Assembly: GCA_963828495.1 (NCBI GenBank)
Contig: CAWHFJ010000009.1
Location: 170,338-234,337, forward strand
DNA length: 64,000 bases
Reading direction: 5' to 3'
DNA from: Candidatus Omnitrophota bacterium
GTDB lineage: Bacteria; Omnitrophota; Gorgyraeia; Zapsychrales; Fredricksoniimonadaceae
Numbering within the stretch: the first letter of the stretch is position 1; every line of letters starts with the position of its first letter. This document shows, piece by piece, positions 30,363 to 43,646 of this stretch. The position numbers and the translations under genes are program-made. Below the pieces are notes generated by a model. That model saw only the letters and a program-made list of their open reading frames with translations, had not been told where the DNA came from and did no database searches.

Positions 30363-31883
30363 ATGTTAGCCCGAATCTCTTCGTTTGGTCTTTGCGGCCT
30401 GGAAGCTTATCCTGTTGTCATTGAAACAGATATAAGTCCCGGACTACCCCTTATTACCGTAGTCGGTCTGCCTGATAATGCCGTCAAAGAAAGCCGTGAA
30501 CGCATACGCGCGGCCATCAAAAACAGCGGTTTTGAATTTCCCCCGCAAAGGATTACCATCAATTTAGCCCCGGCAGACACCAAAAAACAAGGGCCCTGTT
30601 ACGATTTAGCTATTGCCTTAAGCGTGTTGGCGGCCCAAGGACAAATACCCACAAACGCGTTGGATCGCTACTCTTTTCTGGGGGAACTTTCTTTAGACGG
30701 ACGGATACAGCCGGTGCAGGGGGCTTTACCCATTGCCATGGCTGCGGCTAACAGCCCCTGTCAAGGCCTTATTGTGCCTTTCGAAAATGCCAAAGAAGCC
30801 GCTTTAGCCGGCTGTTCGGTTTATCCTGCCCGGCATTTAAACGAAGTCGTGGCGTTCCTGACCGACCCCTCGTCACTAAACGCGGTCAAAATAAATGTTG
30901 ATCATCTCTTCAAAGACAGTCGCCGTCGCGGGGATTTTAGCGAAGTCAAAGGCCAGCACTATATTAAACGCGGTCTGGAGGTGGCTGCGGCTGGAGGGCA
31001 TAATGTGCTTCTGATAGGTGCGCCCGGCAGCGGAAAAACCATGCTGGCCAAACGTCTGACGACGATTTTACCGGATATGACACTGGCAGAAGTGTTACAA
31101 ACGACCCAAATCCATTCCGTGGCCGGACGGCTAAAATATGCCCAAGGCATTATTACCTGCCGGCCTTTCCGTGCGCCTCATCACACGGCGTCTGATATCG
31201 CCATTATCGGCGGAGGCAGCGTGCCACGGCCCGGAGAGGTGACTCTGGCGCATAACGGTGTTTTATTTCTGGATGAATTCCTGGAATTCAACCGCCATGT
31301 GCTGGAAGTCTTGCGCCAGCCTTTAGAAGACGGTTTCGTCAGCATCGCCCGGTCCAAAAATTGTTTACGTTTTCCGGCCCGGTTTATGCTCATTGCCGCC
31401 ATGAATCCATGTCCGTGCGGCTGGAGGGATGTCCCGGGAAAAATCTGCCGCTGTTCCGGTCTGCAAGTTGAAAAATACCGGCAAAAAATTTCCGGGCCGC
31501 TGCTTGACCGCATTGACATCCACCTGCACGCGCTACCCTTAAAAAGTAGCGAATTAATCGATGCGCCCGCAGAAGAATGTTCCGCGACCATCAAAGAACG
31601 CGCATCCATGGCACGGCGTGTGCAATGGCAAAGATTTCAAGGCCTTCCCGTCTTGTGCAACGCCCATATGGAGAGCGCGCACCTGCACAATTTCTGTGCT
31701 TTATCACGGGAAGCCAAAGGAGTCCTGATTGCGGCCATGGAAGAATTAAAATTCTCCGCCCGCGCGCACGATAAAATTCTCAAAGTCGCCCGCACCATAA
31801 GCGACCTCGCTGGTAGTGAATCTATTGAAGCGGAACATATTGCCGAAGCGGTGGGTTACAGGTCATTAGATCGGATGGGATGA
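30363..31883 (+). CDS. comM: Mg-chelatase-like AAA+ ATPase YifB/ComM
   Basis: 506 aa. N-terminal Lon-protease-like domain, Walker A GAPGSGKTMLAKRL and C-terminal ChlI-like region. Confidence 0.85.
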   Translation: MLARISSFGLCGLEAYPVVIETDISPGLPLITVVGLPDNAVKESRERIRAAIKNSGFEFPPQRITINLAPADTKKQGPCYDLAIALSVLAAQGQIPTNALDRYSFLGELSLDGRIQPVQGALPIAMAAANSPCQGLIVPFENAKEAALAGCSVYPARHLNEVVAFLTDPSSLNAVKINVDHLFKDSRRRGDFSEVKGQHYIKRGLEVAAAGGHNVLLIGAPGSGKTMLAKRLTTILPDMTLAEVLQTTQIHSVAGRLKYAQGIITCRPFRAPHHTASDIAIIGGGSVPRPGEVTLAHNGVLFLDEFLEFNRHVLEVLRQPLEDGFVSIARSKNCLRFPARFMLIAAMNPCPCGWRDVPGKICRCSGLQVEKYRQKISGPLLDRIDIHLHALPLKSSELIDAPAEECSATIKERASMARRVQWQRFQGLPVLCNAHMESAHLHNFCALSREAKGVLIAAMEELKFSARAHDKILKVARTISDLAGSESIEAEHIAEAVGYRSLDRMG

Positions 31884-31969
31884 TACATATTCATCGCGCA
31901 CCCAGAAACTCTTCTCAAGAATTTATCTTTTAATTTGTTTTTCATTAAATTTATACCATAATAAATTCA

Positions 31970-33148
31970 ATGCGTTCTCTATCAACCTTTTATATCGCGA
32001 CTCTATTGCTGTTCTCCTGCGCTGTTATTGCTCAAGCTGCCGGAGAACGCGATTTAATCATTCAAAAAGAACTGGATTGCGTTGAGCAACGCGCCCATCA
32101 AACCAGTTCGATCGACTGGAATGATGTTTGTGATACATCTGACCAACAAATGCAGGAGGATGCGCAAGAAAATGATTTAAGGGTCAAAAAACAAATGGAT
32201 CAGCTGCAAAAGGATGCGGAAGAATATGATTTAAAATCCCGGAAAGAAATAGCTGCTATGCAGAAAGATACGCCGCCGCAGAGCCCTTTCGATGAATCTC
32301 GTGTAACCGGCCACACATTTGATATTGCTCCTGAAGTTTCCTATATCAAATATGTTGAAACGAACAATAACACCACTTTTATGAAAGACACCGGGGTCAT
32401 GTATGGCCTTAATGCCAGTTACACAACACATATTGAAGGCACTGACAATATATATACAAAGCTTATTAGCTTGGGCCGTCTTGAGGGCCTGTTTAGTTAC
32501 GGCAAAATGACTTACTATGGCGCTGAAACGGTGACTACTGTTAATCCCGACGGGTCAATAACGCGTGCTACCCTACCCGAAACTCATAAAAATATTGATG
32601 ATTATCTTTTGGAATTAAGGGGCCTTATCGGAAAAGATTTTTATTTTAATGATCAATGGGCGCGTTTGACTCCCTATACAGGGTTTGGATACCGCTCTTT
32701 ATTTGACTCTGCCGAAGAGCTTGGATCAGGTGGTTACAATCGCTGGATCTCTTATGCGTATATTCCGACCGGTTTAGAAGGGATGCTGCAATTAAATGGT
32801 GGCTGGGCCATTGGCGCTGACGCTGAATATGATATTTTTGTTTATGGTTTTGTGAAGAATTATGATTACCCTTTCGTAACGCCTGACGGCAGTTTTGTAA
32901 AGTATGATGTGTATGCCTCACAAAATCGCGGTTTTGGTTTGAGAGGTTCTCTAAAGCTTGTGAAAAAATGTTCTCGTTTTAATTTTATGGTAGAGCCCTA
33001 TGTCCGTTATTGGCACATTCAAAACTCCAATGGCGGGAAGACAAATGAAATAGAATACAACGGACAAGAAGGGCAATGGGTCAATGTAGGTATAGAGCCC
33101 AATAACACATCCCTGGAAATGGGCGGAAAATTAAGCGTCCAATTCTAA
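31970..33148 (+). CDS. Putative outer-membrane beta-barrel protein
   Basis: Signal peptide, a charged repeat region (QMQEDAQENDLRVKKQMDQLQKDAEEYDLK), alternating beta-strand-like segments and a C-terminal ..KLSVQF ending in Phe. Confidence 0.5.
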   Translation: MRSLSTFYIATLLLFSCAVIAQAAGERDLIIQKELDCVEQRAHQTSSIDWNDVCDTSDQQMQEDAQENDLRVKKQMDQLQKDAEEYDLKSRKEIAAMQKDTPPQSPFDESRVTGHTFDIAPEVSYIKYVETNNNTTFMKDTGVMYGLNASYTTHIEGTDNIYTKLISLGRLEGLFSYGKMTYYGAETVTTVNPDGSITRATLPETHKNIDDYLLELRGLIGKDFYFNDQWARLTPYTGFGYRSLFDSAEELGSGGYNRWISYAYIPTGLEGMLQLNGGWAIGADAEYDIFVYGFVKNYDYPFVTPDGSFVKYDVYASQNRGFGLRGSLKLVKKCSRFNFMVEPYVRYWHIQNSNGGKTNEIEYNGQEGQWVNVGIEPNNTSLEMGGKLSVQF

Positions 33149-43424: not shown

Positions 43425-43517
43425 ACACTCTCCCTTACTTTAGCAACAATCGCGGGCTGTAAAAGATTATAGCATTGTCAAACTCCCTTTGTACAAACTA
43501 TCAACAATTTATTCTTC

Positions 43518-43646
43518 AAATTCTCAAAGTCGCCCGCACCATCGCAGATTTAGCAGCCAGCGAATCTATTGAAGCGGCTCCTATGGCCGAGGCGGTGGGG
43601 GGGTTATAGGTCTTTGATGGGGTGGGACAGGATGGGATGATAACAT
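43518..43646 (+). pseudogene. Diverged duplicate of the comM 3' end (last ~30 codons)
   Basis: Aligns with 31774-31888. It reads ILKVARTIADLAASESIEAAPMAEAVGGL*, against ILKVARTISDLAGSESIEAEHIAEAVGYRSLDRMG* in comM. The two share a downstream GATGGGATGATA(A)CAT. Confidence 0.75.

What the first reader, a model, noticed from the sequence alone, without database searches (positions are those of the whole stretch)
31774..43646. An 11.6-kb plus-strand block is bracketed by direct repeats of the comM 3' end
The last ~30 codons of comM plus about 15 nt downstream (31774-31888) recur as a diverged copy at 43518-43646. The copy reads ILKVARTIADLAASESIEAAPMAEAVGGL* and shares the GATGGGATGATA(A)CAT tail. 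Everything between the repeats is therefore a candidate insertion into the comM 3' end. This includes the OMP, the amidotransferase, the methyltransferases, the radical-SAM enzyme, the GT2 and the YfhO-like gene. Under this model one repeat is the displaced original gene end. comM is a known island target in Acinetobacter (AbaR/Tn6022-type insertions). No integrase or transposase remains, and the repeats have diverged, so any insertion would be old.
Basis: partly seen in the sequence, partly recalled or inferred. Interest (0 to 1): 0.6.

Follow-up and report, generated by a model that had tools for sequence, protein, structure and literature searches.

The report
Sugar-gene island inserted at comM's end
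An 11.6-kb cluster of cell-surface sugar-modification genes was inserted at the very end of the comM gene of an uncultivated Omnitrophota bacterium; it brought a replacement gene end and pushed the original end 11.7 kb downstream, which is the ordinary footprint of an integrated genomic island that no longer carries its own integrase.

Summary
The repeat is real. Window 31774-31881 recurs at 43518-43646 (blastn E 6e-19), and five other assemblies carry an identical second copy.

The window comes from a Candidatus Omnitrophota genome, not Acinetobacter. Nine relatives' contigs (comM 75-91% identical) keep the upstream synteny rlmN-accA-ykuD-DUF212-comM. All lack the block and a second comM end. 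In five of them comM is followed by homologues of the window's 43.65-kb flank.

The two copies have different ancestry. Copy 2 matches the closest full-length relative at about the genome-wide level (82% against 86%). The end now attached to comM drops to 70%. It switches to resemble another lineage exactly where the 25-nt identical stretch ends (14 of 16 informative sites, gene-wide permutation p=0.003). So copy 2 is the displaced original end.

The cargo is a polysaccharide-modification module: AsnB-like amidotransferase, an (alpha/alpha)6 sugar-enzyme fold, three methyltransferases, a B12 radical-SAM enzyme, a polyprenyl-phosphate-type GT2 and a GT-C-like membrane protein. No recombinase is present, and composition matches the host.

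Best reading: an integrase-less remnant of an integrative island (CIME-like). It is mechanistically unrelated to AbaR/Tn6022. It is a new member of a known kind, of modest interest.

The parts
30363..31883 (+). comM/yifB (Mg-chelatase-like AAA+ ATPase), 506 aa. Intact; this is the target gene.
   Evidence: Pfam finds ChlI, Mg_chelatase and Mg_chelatase_C across the whole length. The protein is 75-91% identical to Omnitrophota YifB proteins.
31774..31888 (+). Repeat copy 1 (attL-like): the last 36-37 codons of comM plus 5 nt.
31774..31798 (+). 25-nt stretch identical in both copies; the candidate crossover core.
   Evidence: The ancestry of comM switches exactly at its right edge.
31799..31881 (+). 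Replacement gene end, inferred to have arrived with the block. Positions 31799-31838 resemble the L107 lineage rather than L001.
   Evidence: Over 31799-31874 this segment is 69.7% identical to L001, against 85.7-85.8% for the rest of comM. Over 31799-31840 it matches L107 at 37/42 sites and L001 at 25/42. Fourteen of 16 informative sites are L107-like, permutation p=0.003.
31970..33148 (+). orf392: signal-peptide-like N-terminus and C-terminal ...LSVQF. It may be an outer-membrane protein, but this is unverified.
   Evidence: No Pfam, NCBIfam or PHROGs hit. The AlphaFold single-sequence model has pLDDT 38 and is uninformative. No homologue in any fetched locus outside the same population.
33345..35243 (+). 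AsnB-like glutamine-dependent amidotransferase, 632 aa.
   Evidence: Pfam Asn_synthase and GATase_7. It passes the TIGR01536 cut-off. The nearest named family is the XrtA/PEP-CTERM amidotransferase, but the score is below that family's cut-off.
35250..36200 (+). orf316: an (alpha/alpha)6-toroid protein from a widespread unnamed family that travels with the AsnB and radical-SAM genes.
   Evidence: 112 homologues, almost all without a Pfam hit. The AlphaFold model has pLDDT 95.7. The nearest solved folds are GlcNAc 2-epimerase, mannose isomerase, GH88/105/127 hydrolases and polysaccharide lyases, at TM about 0.55 and E about 1e-3.
36197..36406 (+). orf69: a conserved small ORF of the module.
   Evidence: tblastn matches of 50-63% identity, next to orf316 or radical-SAM homologues, in L082, L090, L091 and L103.
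36411..38805 (+). Three class-I SAM methyltransferases (36411-37226, 37223-37978, 37975-38805).
   Evidence: Pfam Methyltransf_11/25/31.
38790..40268 (+). B12-binding radical-SAM enzyme. Gene callers start it at 38817, giving 483 aa.
   Evidence: Pfam B12-binding and Radical_SAM. It is HpnJ-like but below that family's cut-off.
40268..41134 (+). GT2 glycosyltransferase of the polyprenyl-phosphate-sugar synthase type.
   Evidence: Pfam Glycos_transf_2. The best NCBIfam matches are AglJ, dolichyl-phosphate hexose transferase and ArnC, all below their cut-offs.
41175..43424 (-). Polytopic membrane protein, 749 aa, GT-C-like ('YfhO-like', below the Pfam threshold). It is the only minus-strand gene of the block.
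   Evidence: Pfam YfhO scores 26.6 bits against a cut-off of 28.5, over the C-terminal ~80 aa only. There are 2891 distant homologues, the best 34% identical. Of eight homologues scanned, seven have no Pfam hit and one has a weak PMT_2 hit.
43518..43646 (+). Repeat copy 2 (attR-like): the displaced, decaying original 3' end of comM.
   Evidence: It is 81.6% identical to the L001 comM end, close to the gene-wide level. It carries a frameshift and a 9-nt insertion. Its pseudo-stop at 43639-43641 lies 36 nt from the stop of the convergent cc812 gene, the same geometry as in relatives, where the gap is 3-60 nt. It is identical in five assemblies.
43678..46116 (-). cc812 coiled-coil protein: the original downstream neighbour of comM (right flank).
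   Evidence: Its homologues lie immediately after comM, or after one response-regulator gene, in L002, L109/L110 and L135/L136.

Best explanation
The block 31889-43517 is the cargo of an integrative genomic island. A circular DNA entered the 3' end of comM by a single reciprocal crossover. That DNA carried its own imitation of the last ~36 codons of comM, an attP of the kind that rebuilds the target gene.

The crossover fell in or at the right edge of the 25-nt stretch 31774-31798. As a result, comM now ends in an element-supplied segment (31799-31883) and stays intact. The original gene end was pushed 11.7 kb downstream (43518-43646). There it still sits next to its old convergent neighbour, cc812, and is decaying.

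The cargo is a surface-polysaccharide decoration module. A polyprenyl-phosphate-sugar synthase-like GT2 and a GT-C-like membrane transferase would attach a sugar outside the cytoplasm. The amidotransferase, the (alpha/alpha)6 enzyme, three SAM methyltransferases and the B12 radical-SAM enzyme would tailor it.

The recombinase is no longer in the element. Either it was deleted, or an integrase-bearing partner element that had accreted at the same att site later left. What remains is a cargo-only element flanked by att sites, that is, CIME-like.

Shown: the repeats, the empty sites in relatives, the different ancestry of the two copies with a breakpoint at the core, the intact comM, the absence of a recombinase, and the nature of the cargo families. 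Inferred: that a site-specific (tyrosine-type) integrase did the job, how it was lost, and the chemistry of the glycan.
For: The repeat is significant and unique in the window and reproduced in five other assemblies.

Empty sites. Nine relatives' contigs share rlmN-accA-ykuD-DUF212-comM. In all of them a non-block gene follows comM within 3-135 nt: a convergent gene in six, and a small plus-strand gene in three (a response regulator in L002 and L135/L136; a 168-aa ORF with a faint Y1_Tnp hit in L134, a fourth case). None has the block or a second comM end. Five of them continue with cc812, orf1281 or orf94 homologues.

Ancestry. The window's comM is 85.7% identical to L001 up to 31773 and 23/25 in the core, but only 69.7% over 31799-31874. 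Copy 2 is 81.6% there. At sites where the two copies differ, L001 agrees with copy 2 at 13 and with copy 1 at 4 (p=0.049). The strongest cluster of L107-like sites in the whole gene, 14 of 16, begins at 31799, the first base after the identical core (permutation p=0.003). Over 31799-31840, copy 1 matches L107 at 37/42 sites and L001 at 25/42.

The distance from copy 2 to cc812 keeps the ancestral geometry. A CGTAGGGGCA motif just after copy 2 also occurs just after comM in L134.

The block is 96% coding and holds ten ORFs; seven match biosynthetic enzyme families, one is a GT-C-like membrane protein, and two (orf392, orf69) are unassigned. No recombinase, transposase or phage family was found.

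The AsnB/orf316/orf69/radical-SAM/GT2 module recurs inside Wzx/Wzy-type polysaccharide loci elsewhere, alongside Bac_transf, Wzy_C, WecG, Polysacc_synt, DegT and epimerase genes.

Against: No integrase is present, so the enzyme is inferred only from the footprint.

No excised circle or empty-site variant was found in the same population: all six contigs carry the block.

The ancestry argument rests on 42-76 nt, and the breakpoint statistic was computed after the pattern had been seen.

The right part of copy 1 (31844-31881, including the DRMG* tail) is the same in both copies, so the foreign stretch may be only about 40 nt. That would also fit a short conversion patch.

Composition, codon usage and tetranucleotide profile do not set the block apart: GC 0.442 against 0.463, codon-usage distance no larger than for other genes.

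No integrase-bearing relative of the island, and no other comM 3'-end island, turned up among the 80 comM loci. Those searches saw only 10 kb downstream, and their family summary could hide single hits.
Confidence: 0.62

Rival explanations
1. The topology is the same, but no dedicated recombinase was involved. DNA from a related Omnitrophota lineage, containing a comM 3' end plus the glycan cluster, entered by RecA-dependent Campbell-type single crossover or by homology-facilitated illegitimate recombination after DNA uptake.
For: No integrase is present in the block or anywhere in the window. The incoming gene end looks like a genuine comM allele of sampled relatives: 82% identical to L107 and 76% to L135. 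Block composition is indistinguishable from the host's, as expected for a donor from within the phylum. The region downstream of comM differs in almost every relative, so the locus is recombinogenic.
Against: The shared segment is only about 108 nt at 72-80% identity, with a 25-nt perfect stretch, which is a poor RecA substrate. Homology of copy 2 begins abruptly exactly where the perfect stretch begins, and the ancestry switch sits exactly at its other edge. That fits a defined att core better than a random illegitimate junction. The sequence just after copy 1's stop (31884-31969) matches no relative's region downstream of comM.
Confidence: 0.22
2. The block is ancestral to this Omnitrophota clade, and the relatives lost it by recombination between the two repeats. 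The window would then show the old state rather than a lineage-specific gain.
For: Deletion between direct repeats is easy and would leave a single clean comM end. The host-like composition of the block fits long residence.
Against: At least six distinct relative lineages, with comM 75-91% identical, lack the block. None shows a scar or a chimeric end, and several keep the cc812/orf94 flank. This would need many independent precise losses. Copy 2 has only 3 unique substitutions and 2 indels, too few for a fragment that had been neutral since before those lineages split at 14-29% nucleotide divergence. An original integration would still be required, so this changes the timing only.
Confidence: 0.08
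3. The block is an AbaR/Tn6022-like Tn7-family transposon targeted to comM.
For: Only that the target gene family is the same (PMC11014353, PMC11472951).
Against: There are no TnsA/B/C/TniQ genes or any transposase. comM is not interrupted. The duplication is about 108 nt and diverged, not a 5-bp target-site duplication. There are no terminal inverted repeats at the boundaries beyond one AT-rich 22-nt pair at 77% complementarity, no better than the many other chance pairs listed.
Confidence: 0.01
4. The repeat is chance similarity, or an assembly chimera or duplication.
For: The window does show frameshift-split genes relative to other assemblies.
Against: The repeat has E 5.7e-19. The same junctions and an identical copy 2 occur in independent ENA and Logan assemblies from different runs, at 99.9% identity over up to 20.8 kb.
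Confidence: 0.01

Closest known systems
Genomic islands and IMEs that integrate into the 3' end of a conserved protein-coding gene and rebuild it (for example SGI1 at trmE, GIsul2 at guaA)
   Same: The insertion sits in the last codons of a housekeeping gene. The gene is kept intact by an element-borne copy of its end. Imperfect direct repeats (attL and attR) bracket the cargo. The site is empty in relatives (for the type, the abstract of PMC8409611 and PMC9376610).
   Different: Those islands carry their own tyrosine integrase next to an att site; this block has none. The target here is the comM/yifB 3' end in Omnitrophota, for which I found no described precedent. Mobility is not shown.
CIME (cis-mobilizable element), as defined for streptococcal ICE/IME accretion
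   Same: Both flanking att-like repeats are retained, and there are no integration or transfer genes; only cargo remains (definition in PMC5704250).
   Different: No partner ICE or IME with a matching integrase is known, no third att site or tandem partner lies in the window, and mobilisation in cis is untested.
AbaR/AbGRI (Tn6022-family, Tn7-like) islands in Acinetobacter comM
   Same: The target gene family is the same, and both carry accessory cargo.
   Different: Tn6022 transposes with TnsABC+TniQ+TnsF into a fixed point inside comM, leaves a 5-bp duplication and inactivates the gene (PMC11014353, PMC11472951). Here there is no transposase, the gene is intact, and the repeats are about 108 nt.
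Integrative elements that interrupt yifB/comM mid-gene (the 'regulated gene integrity' class)
   Same: The same gene is hit, and this happens in the window's own closest relatives. In L104-L106, comM is cut at codon 353 next to a large serine recombinase gene. yifB is listed among such targets in PMC7192596.
   Different: The site differs (codon ~353 against ~471). The recombinase type differs: a serine recombinase, which as far as I know exchanges over 2 bp and leaves no long repeat. The outcome differs too: there the gene is split, here it is preserved.
Three-component extracytoplasmic glycosylation systems (GtrB/CsbB-type GT2 plus a GT-C such as YfhO, ArnT or GtrC)
   Same: A GT2 with AglJ/ArnC/dolichyl-phosphate-hexose-transferase-like best hits lies next to a large polytopic membrane protein with weak YfhO/PMT_2 signals.
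   Different: No GtrA-like flippase was recognised. The YfhO hit is below threshold. The extra amidotransferase, radical-SAM and methyltransferase set is not part of the classical systems. The comparison rests on family resemblance and on my knowledge of those systems, not on a test.

Membership tests
Site-specific integrative island (tyrosine-integrase type) | Flanking direct repeats (attL/attR) that contain part of the target gene | tested here: met
   31774-31881 matches 43518-43646 with E 5.7e-19, including a 25-nt identical core.
Site-specific integrative island (tyrosine-integrase type) | Target gene stays intact because the element supplies a substitute end | tested here: met
   comM is full-length with all three domains. 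Its last ~85 nt have a different ancestry from the rest of the gene.
Site-specific integrative island (tyrosine-integrase type) | Unoccupied site in related genomes | tested here: met
   L001, L002, L107-L110 and L134-L136 all lack the block and a second comM-end copy.
Site-specific integrative island (tyrosine-integrase type) | Integrase gene inside the element next to an att site | tested here: not met
   All ten block ORFs were scanned against Pfam and NCBIfam, and the four without an enzyme-family assignment also against PHROGs; no recombinase was found. Only 425 nt of the block are non-coding.
Site-specific integrative island (tyrosine-integrase type) | Excision to a circular form and a restored attB | not testable with these tools
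   This needs the raw reads. All six contigs of the population carry the integrated form.
Site-specific integrative island (tyrosine-integrase type) | Composition that deviates from the host (usual but not obligatory) | tested here: not met
   GC 0.442 against 0.463 (p=0.04) and GC3 0.464 against 0.499 (p=0.06). Codon-usage and tetranucleotide distances are not elevated.
CIME (cis-mobilizable element) | attL and attR retained while integration and transfer genes are absent | tested here: met
   definition in PMC5704250.
CIME (cis-mobilizable element) | Derived from, or mobilisable by, a related ICE/IME that uses the same att site | not testable with these tools
   No partner element was found. 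The scan of genes downstream of comM in 80 loci showed no recurrent integrase, although single hits could be hidden by the summary format.
AbaR/Tn6022 Tn7-like transposon | TnsA/TnsB/TnsC/TniQ(+TnsF) genes | tested here: not met
   None found.
AbaR/Tn6022 Tn7-like transposon | 5-bp target-site duplication and interruption of comM at a fixed internal point | tested here: not met
   The duplication is about 108 nt and diverged, at the gene's end, and the gene is intact (PMC11014353).
Prophage | Phage structural or replication genes | tested here: not met
   No PHROGs hit for the unassigned block proteins; the others are biosynthetic enzymes.
YfhO family (PF09586) | Score at or above the Pfam gathering threshold over the family's length | tested here: not met
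   26.6 bits against a cut-off of 28.5, covering profile positions 748-828 only. Seven of eight homologues have no Pfam hit and one has a weak PMT_2 hit. 'GT-C-like' is therefore a resemblance, not a membership.
ComM/YifB (Mg-chelatase-like AAA+ ATPase) | ChlI N-domain, Mg_chelatase AAA+ core and Mg_chelatase_C domain | tested here: met
   E-values of 5e-48, 8e-90 and 7e-30 respectively. A role in transformation in this organism is untested.

The most novel reading that the evidence does not exclude
Omnitrophota may possess a so far undescribed family of integrative elements that target the last ~36 codons of comM/yifB. The block would be a cargo-only cassette that such elements shuttle in trans. 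Surface-glycan modification modules would then be swapped between lineages at this site, which would be a mechanism of envelope variation in an uncultivated phylum of very small cells. The same gene is independently hit mid-gene by serine-recombinase elements in the closest relatives. That would make comM a double hotspot, possibly because damaging or controlling ComM protects mobile DNA from removal by transformation.
Probability: 0.15. Interest if true: 0.55.

Novelty: new member of a known kind. Interest (0 to 1): 0.3.

Why it matters
The finding gives a cleanly documented case of horizontal gain of a surface-polysaccharide tailoring module in Omnitrophota, a phylum known only from metagenomes. 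Both junctions are preserved, the pre-insertion state can be reconstructed, and the target gene is kept functional.

It also shows that the divergence between att-like repeats cannot be read as age when the element brings its own version of the gene end.

Together with the serine-recombinase insertions seen in the nearest relatives, it marks comM/yifB as a recurrent landing site for mobile DNA outside the Proteobacteria. The underlying principle, an island at the 3' end of a conserved gene, is textbook, so the general interest is modest.

Tried and rejected
(1) An exact-protein look-up of the window's comM found nothing on record. The cc812 look-up also failed.

(2) I looked for an empty-site variant in the same population through the YfhO-like protein and orf127. 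All contigs carry the block.

(3) I scanned the 80 comM loci for a second comM 3' end within 10 kb. Only L057 (Anaerolineaceae) has one, about 210 nt downstream. Islands longer than 10 kb would have been missed.

(4) I searched for integrases downstream of comM in those loci. A crude motif search and a pooled Pfam scan of 117 downstream ORFs showed no recurrent recombinase family. Single hits would not appear in the pooled summary, so this is inconclusive.

(5) Scans of IMG/VR for the comM end motif: the first pattern gave nothing. The second gave 21 contigs, but these hold host-flank comM fragments, most starting at about residue 345 (the mid-gene site), not 3'-end attP sites.

(6) No comM-end remnant lies next to the homologous glycan modules in other contigs.

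(7) Rfam and the promoter/terminator scans found nothing above chance in the region. The best promoter-like site (43495-43466, minus strand) lies upstream of the YfhO-like gene.

(8) The AlphaFold model of orf392 without an alignment was unusable, with pLDDT 38.

(9) A GTCGC-N11-GCGAC inverted repeat spans the core and the start of the replacement end. It could be a pair of recombinase half-sites, but it also follows from the codons for VARTISD, so I give it no weight.

(10) Literature searches found no described comM 3'-end integrase system.

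
Full report
OBSERVATION. The last 36-37 codons of the plus-strand gene 30363-31883, plus about 5 nt, recur 11,744 nt downstream. Ungapped, 31774-31855 matches 43518-43599 (82 nt, 80%). With gaps the match continues to the shared tail GGATGGGATGATA(A)CAT. A blastn of the gene end against the whole window gives this one extra hit at E 5.7e-19 and nothing else below E 0.4. 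The first 25 nt (AAATTCTCAAAGTCGCCCGCACCAT) are identical in both copies, and similarity ends abruptly to their left. Relative to a normal gene end it carries a G3-to-G7 expansion, a 9-nt slippage insertion, and replacements (H to P, I to M) in the EHIAEA motif, whose HIAEA part is almost invariant in the ~50 homologue C-termini listed. It is identical, G7 run included, in five independent assemblies that are 99.9% identical to the window over up to 20.8 kb. The minor errors are the length of the downstream tail, the 'plus-strand' label (the YfhO-like gene is on the minus strand), and the unverified 'OMP' label.

ORGANISM AND GENE. The gene has the three domains of ComM/YifB. Its nearest relatives are YifB proteins of Candidatus Omnitrophota/Omnitrophica MAGs. 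These include L002 at 75%, P0117 at 86%, and L001 at 91% (L001 is labelled Planctomycetales by its depositor, but it is syntenic and 84% identical in DNA with the window). The rest of the window is ordinary chromosome: purine synthesis, biotin genes, accA, rlmN, pta/ackA and two tRNAs. No recombinase or transposase was found in any ORF scanned.

EMPTY SITES. Nine relatives' contigs keep rlmN-accA-ykuD-DUF212-comM upstream (L001, L002, L107, L108, L109, L110, L134, L135, L136). In all of them comM is followed within 3-135 nt by a gene that is not part of the block: a convergent gene in most, a small plus-strand gene in L002, L134 and L135/L136. None has the block, and none has a second comM end. 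In L002 and L135/L136 the order is comM, a small response regulator, then a cc812 homologue, followed by orf127/orf1281 homologues in L002 and an orf94 homologue in L135/L136. In L109/L110 it is comM, a cc812-like gene, an orf1281-like gene, orf94. These are the genes that lie to the right of copy 2 in the window. The pseudo-stop of copy 2 (43639-43641) is 36 nt from the stop of the convergent cc812 gene (43678), the same geometry as in the relatives.

WHICH COPY IS ORIGINAL. Against L001, the closest relative with a full gene, the window's comM is 85.7% identical up to 31773 and 23/25 in the core. It is only 69.7% identical over 31799-31874. No 76-nt window inside comM is that low; the 3.5% of upstream 76-nt windows that are as low all lie outside comM (ykuD, the small TPR gene and the comM-upstream spacer). 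Copy 2 is 81.6% identical to L001 over the same columns. At sites where the two copies differ, L001 sides with copy 2 at 13 and with copy 1 at 4 (p=0.049).

I then used sites where L001 and a second relative, L107, differ. The window follows L001 almost without exception from about 31655 to 31799. It then follows L107 at 14 of the next 16 informative sites (31799-31838). This is the strongest such cluster in the whole gene (permutation p=0.003), and it begins at the first base after the 25-nt identical stretch. Over 31799-31840, copy 1 matches L107 at 37/42 sites and L001 at 25/42; copy 2 matches L001 at 32/42.

So the end now attached to comM has a different ancestry from the rest of the gene, and copy 2 has the expected ancestry. 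Copy 2 is the displaced original end, and copy 1 came in with the block. It follows that the 20-28% divergence between the copies was mostly present at birth. Only 3 substitutions and 2 indels are unique to copy 2. The sample is small (42-76 nt) and the breakpoint test was post hoc; I treat this as good but not conclusive evidence.

THE CARGO. The block is 96% coding. It holds the following genes:
- orf392: signal-peptide-like start, ends in ...LSVQF, no family hit.
- An AsnB-like amidotransferase.
- orf316.
- A conserved 69-aa ORF.
- Three SAM methyltransferases.
- A B12-binding radical-SAM enzyme (HpnJ-like, below cut-off).
- A GT2 whose best matches are polyprenyl-phosphate sugar transferases (AglJ, dolichyl-phosphate hexose transferase, ArnC; all below their cut-offs).
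- On the other strand, a 749-aa polytopic membrane protein with a sub-threshold YfhO hit.

orf316 belongs to a widespread family with essentially no annotation (112 homologues). With an alignment it folds with pLDDT 95.7 into an (alpha/alpha)6 toroid. Its nearest solved relatives are sugar epimerases/isomerases, GH88/105/127 hydrolases and polysaccharide lyases, at fold-level similarity only. The membrane protein has 2891 distant homologues, the best 34% identical. Seven of eight scanned have no Pfam hit and one has a weak PMT_2 hit, so 'GT-C-like' is a resemblance only.

The AsnB/orf316/orf69/radical-SAM/GT2 set recurs, in varying order, in metagenome contigs (L081, L082, L086, L088, L090, L091). 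On long contigs it sits inside Wzx/Wzy-type polysaccharide loci with Bac_transf, Wzy_C, WecG, a Polysacc_synt flippase, DegT and sugar epimerases (L102 from an Omnitrophota MAG, and L103). From knowledge of GtrB/CsbB-plus-GT-C systems, I infer that the cargo decorates a surface glycan outside the cytoplasm. The chemistry is unknown. There are no phage families in the block.

COMPOSITION. The block's GC is 0.442 against 0.463 for the other genes (p=0.04), and GC3 is 0.464 against 0.499 (p=0.06). Codon-usage distance to the background is not larger than for other genes, and tetranucleotide distance is not elevated. This fits a donor within the same phylum, as does the incoming gene end, which resembles real Omnitrophota comM alleles.

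MECHANISM. The topology has four features: direct repeats, an intact target gene, a replaced end, and the original end left in place beside its old neighbour. This is what a single reciprocal crossover produces between the chromosome and a circular DNA carrying a comM-end look-alike.

Two features point to a defined att core and hence a site-specific recombinase. These are the sharp left edge of homology at the start of a 25-nt perfect stretch, and the ancestry switch at its right edge. This is how SGI1 uses the trmE 3' end and GIsul2 uses guaA (PMC8409611, PMC9376610). No recombinase gene is present, and only 425 nt of the block are non-coding. The element is therefore cargo-only with both att-like sites, which matches the published definition of a CIME (PMC5704250). 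It may have lost its integrase by deletion, or an accreted integrase-bearing partner may have left. That step is inference.

The main rival is RecA-dependent integration of DNA from a relative (Campbell-type, or homology-facilitated illegitimate recombination). It explains the missing integrase and the host-like composition. It fits poorly with a 108-nt, 72-80% identical homology segment and with the coincidence of both boundaries with the perfect stretch. An ancestral block with many precise losses, Tn7-like transposition, and artefact are each unlikely or refuted, as set out in the rival explanations.

COMPARISON WITH KNOWN SYSTEMS. AbaR/Tn6022 elements insert inside Acinetobacter comM by Tn7-like transposition with TnsABC, TniQ and TnsF. 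They make a 5-bp duplication and inactivate the gene (PMC11014353, PMC11472951). None of these features is present here, so the analogy is limited to the name of the target.

A different link to mobile DNA did emerge. In the window's closest relatives (comM 95% identical over the retained part; L104-L106, from three samples) comM is cut at codon 353 (..MNPCPC|) by an element whose first gene is a large serine recombinase. That gene is followed by HTH, RepB-primase-like and other genes. Prophage contigs in IMG/VR from unrelated bacteria carry comM fragments that begin at residues ~345-347. yifB is already listed among genes interrupted by integrative elements (PMC7192596). That site and that enzyme type are distinct from the 3'-end event in the window. 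I found no description of integration at the comM 3' end.

VERDICT. The feature is a new member of a known kind, an integrase-less remnant of an integrative island carrying a glycan-tailoring module. It is a neat case in a poorly known phylum, but it would not surprise a specialist.

Noticed in passing
L104:10001-16953, L105:10001-16909, L106:199-7058: In the closest relatives of the window's lineage (comM 95% identical), comM is truncated at codon 353 (..AAMNPCPC|R*). It is abutted by a convergent large serine recombinase gene (Resolvase+Recombinase+Zn_ribbon_recom, 504-517 aa), followed by HTH, a RepB_primase-like 679-aa gene and a SpoVG-like gene. This is an integrative element inside comM, seen in three samples. 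P0162 (92%) and P0229 (84%) are truncated at the same place.
   Followed up: partly
L112, L114, L117, L119, L122, L123, L124, L130 (IMG/VR contigs): Prophage contigs from unrelated bacteria contain comM fragments that start at query residues ~333-347. This is next to the conserved NPCPCG motif where the Omnitrophota serine-recombinase element sits. It suggests a widely used mid-gene attachment site in comM/yifB.
   Followed up: partly
L057:1900-2520 (Anaerolineaceae MAG): A second, diverged copy of the last ~50-70 codons of comM (75% over 144 nt) lies only about 210 nt downstream of the intact gene. It could be the scar of an island that was almost entirely deleted, or a very small insertion at the same kind of site in another phylum.
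   Followed up: partly
window 52064-53108 and 23776-24928: An acetate-kinase-like gene is split into overlapping ORFs in different frames (52064-52747 and 52719-53108), and so is a class-I/II aminotransferase (23776-24501 and 24425-24928). The same genes are whole in other assemblies or relatives (347 aa in L096; 383 aa in L109). These are frameshifts, either assembly errors or pseudogenes.
   Followed up: no
window 58605-63683: Two Fic-domain genes (58605-59960 with GC 0.33 and GC3 0.25; 62589-63683) and a response-regulator gene (61762-62181, GC 0.35) are compositionally far from the rest of the window (GC about 0.46). A 305-aa ORF with a weak endonuclease VII PHROG hit lies between them. 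This is possibly a separate acquired islet.
   Followed up: no
Downstream of comM in L001, L107, L108, L134 (compare window 43678-51496): The region after comM differs in almost every relative and is filled with very large unannotated proteins (1233-1958 aa) and GT-C-like membrane proteins (PMT_2, DUF6798, and a weak YfhO hit in L107, L108 and L134). L134 has a 168-aa ORF with a faint Y1_Tnp (IS200-like) hit right after comM. The locus is a variable region independently of the block.
   Followed up: partly
L104:365-5508 and L105:365-5149: Where the window has tRNA-Leu and tRNA-Ala (25962-26134) next to the STI1-like gene, these relatives have a run of small unannotated ORFs plus an AAA_25 gene and, in L104, an HTH gene. 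This may be another integrated element at the tRNA site.
   Followed up: no
window 36197-36406: A 69-aa ORF with no family assignment is conserved (50-63% identity) next to orf316 or radical-SAM homologues in at least four unrelated contigs (L082, L090, L091, L103). It is a real small gene of the module with unknown role.
   Followed up: partly
window 43466-43495 (minus strand): The best sigma-70-like match in the 13.5-kb region scanned (TGTACA-18-TATAAT with an extended -10 TG) lies inside the element's right arm, upstream of the YfhO-like gene. The total number of such matches in the region is no more than chance.
   Followed up: no
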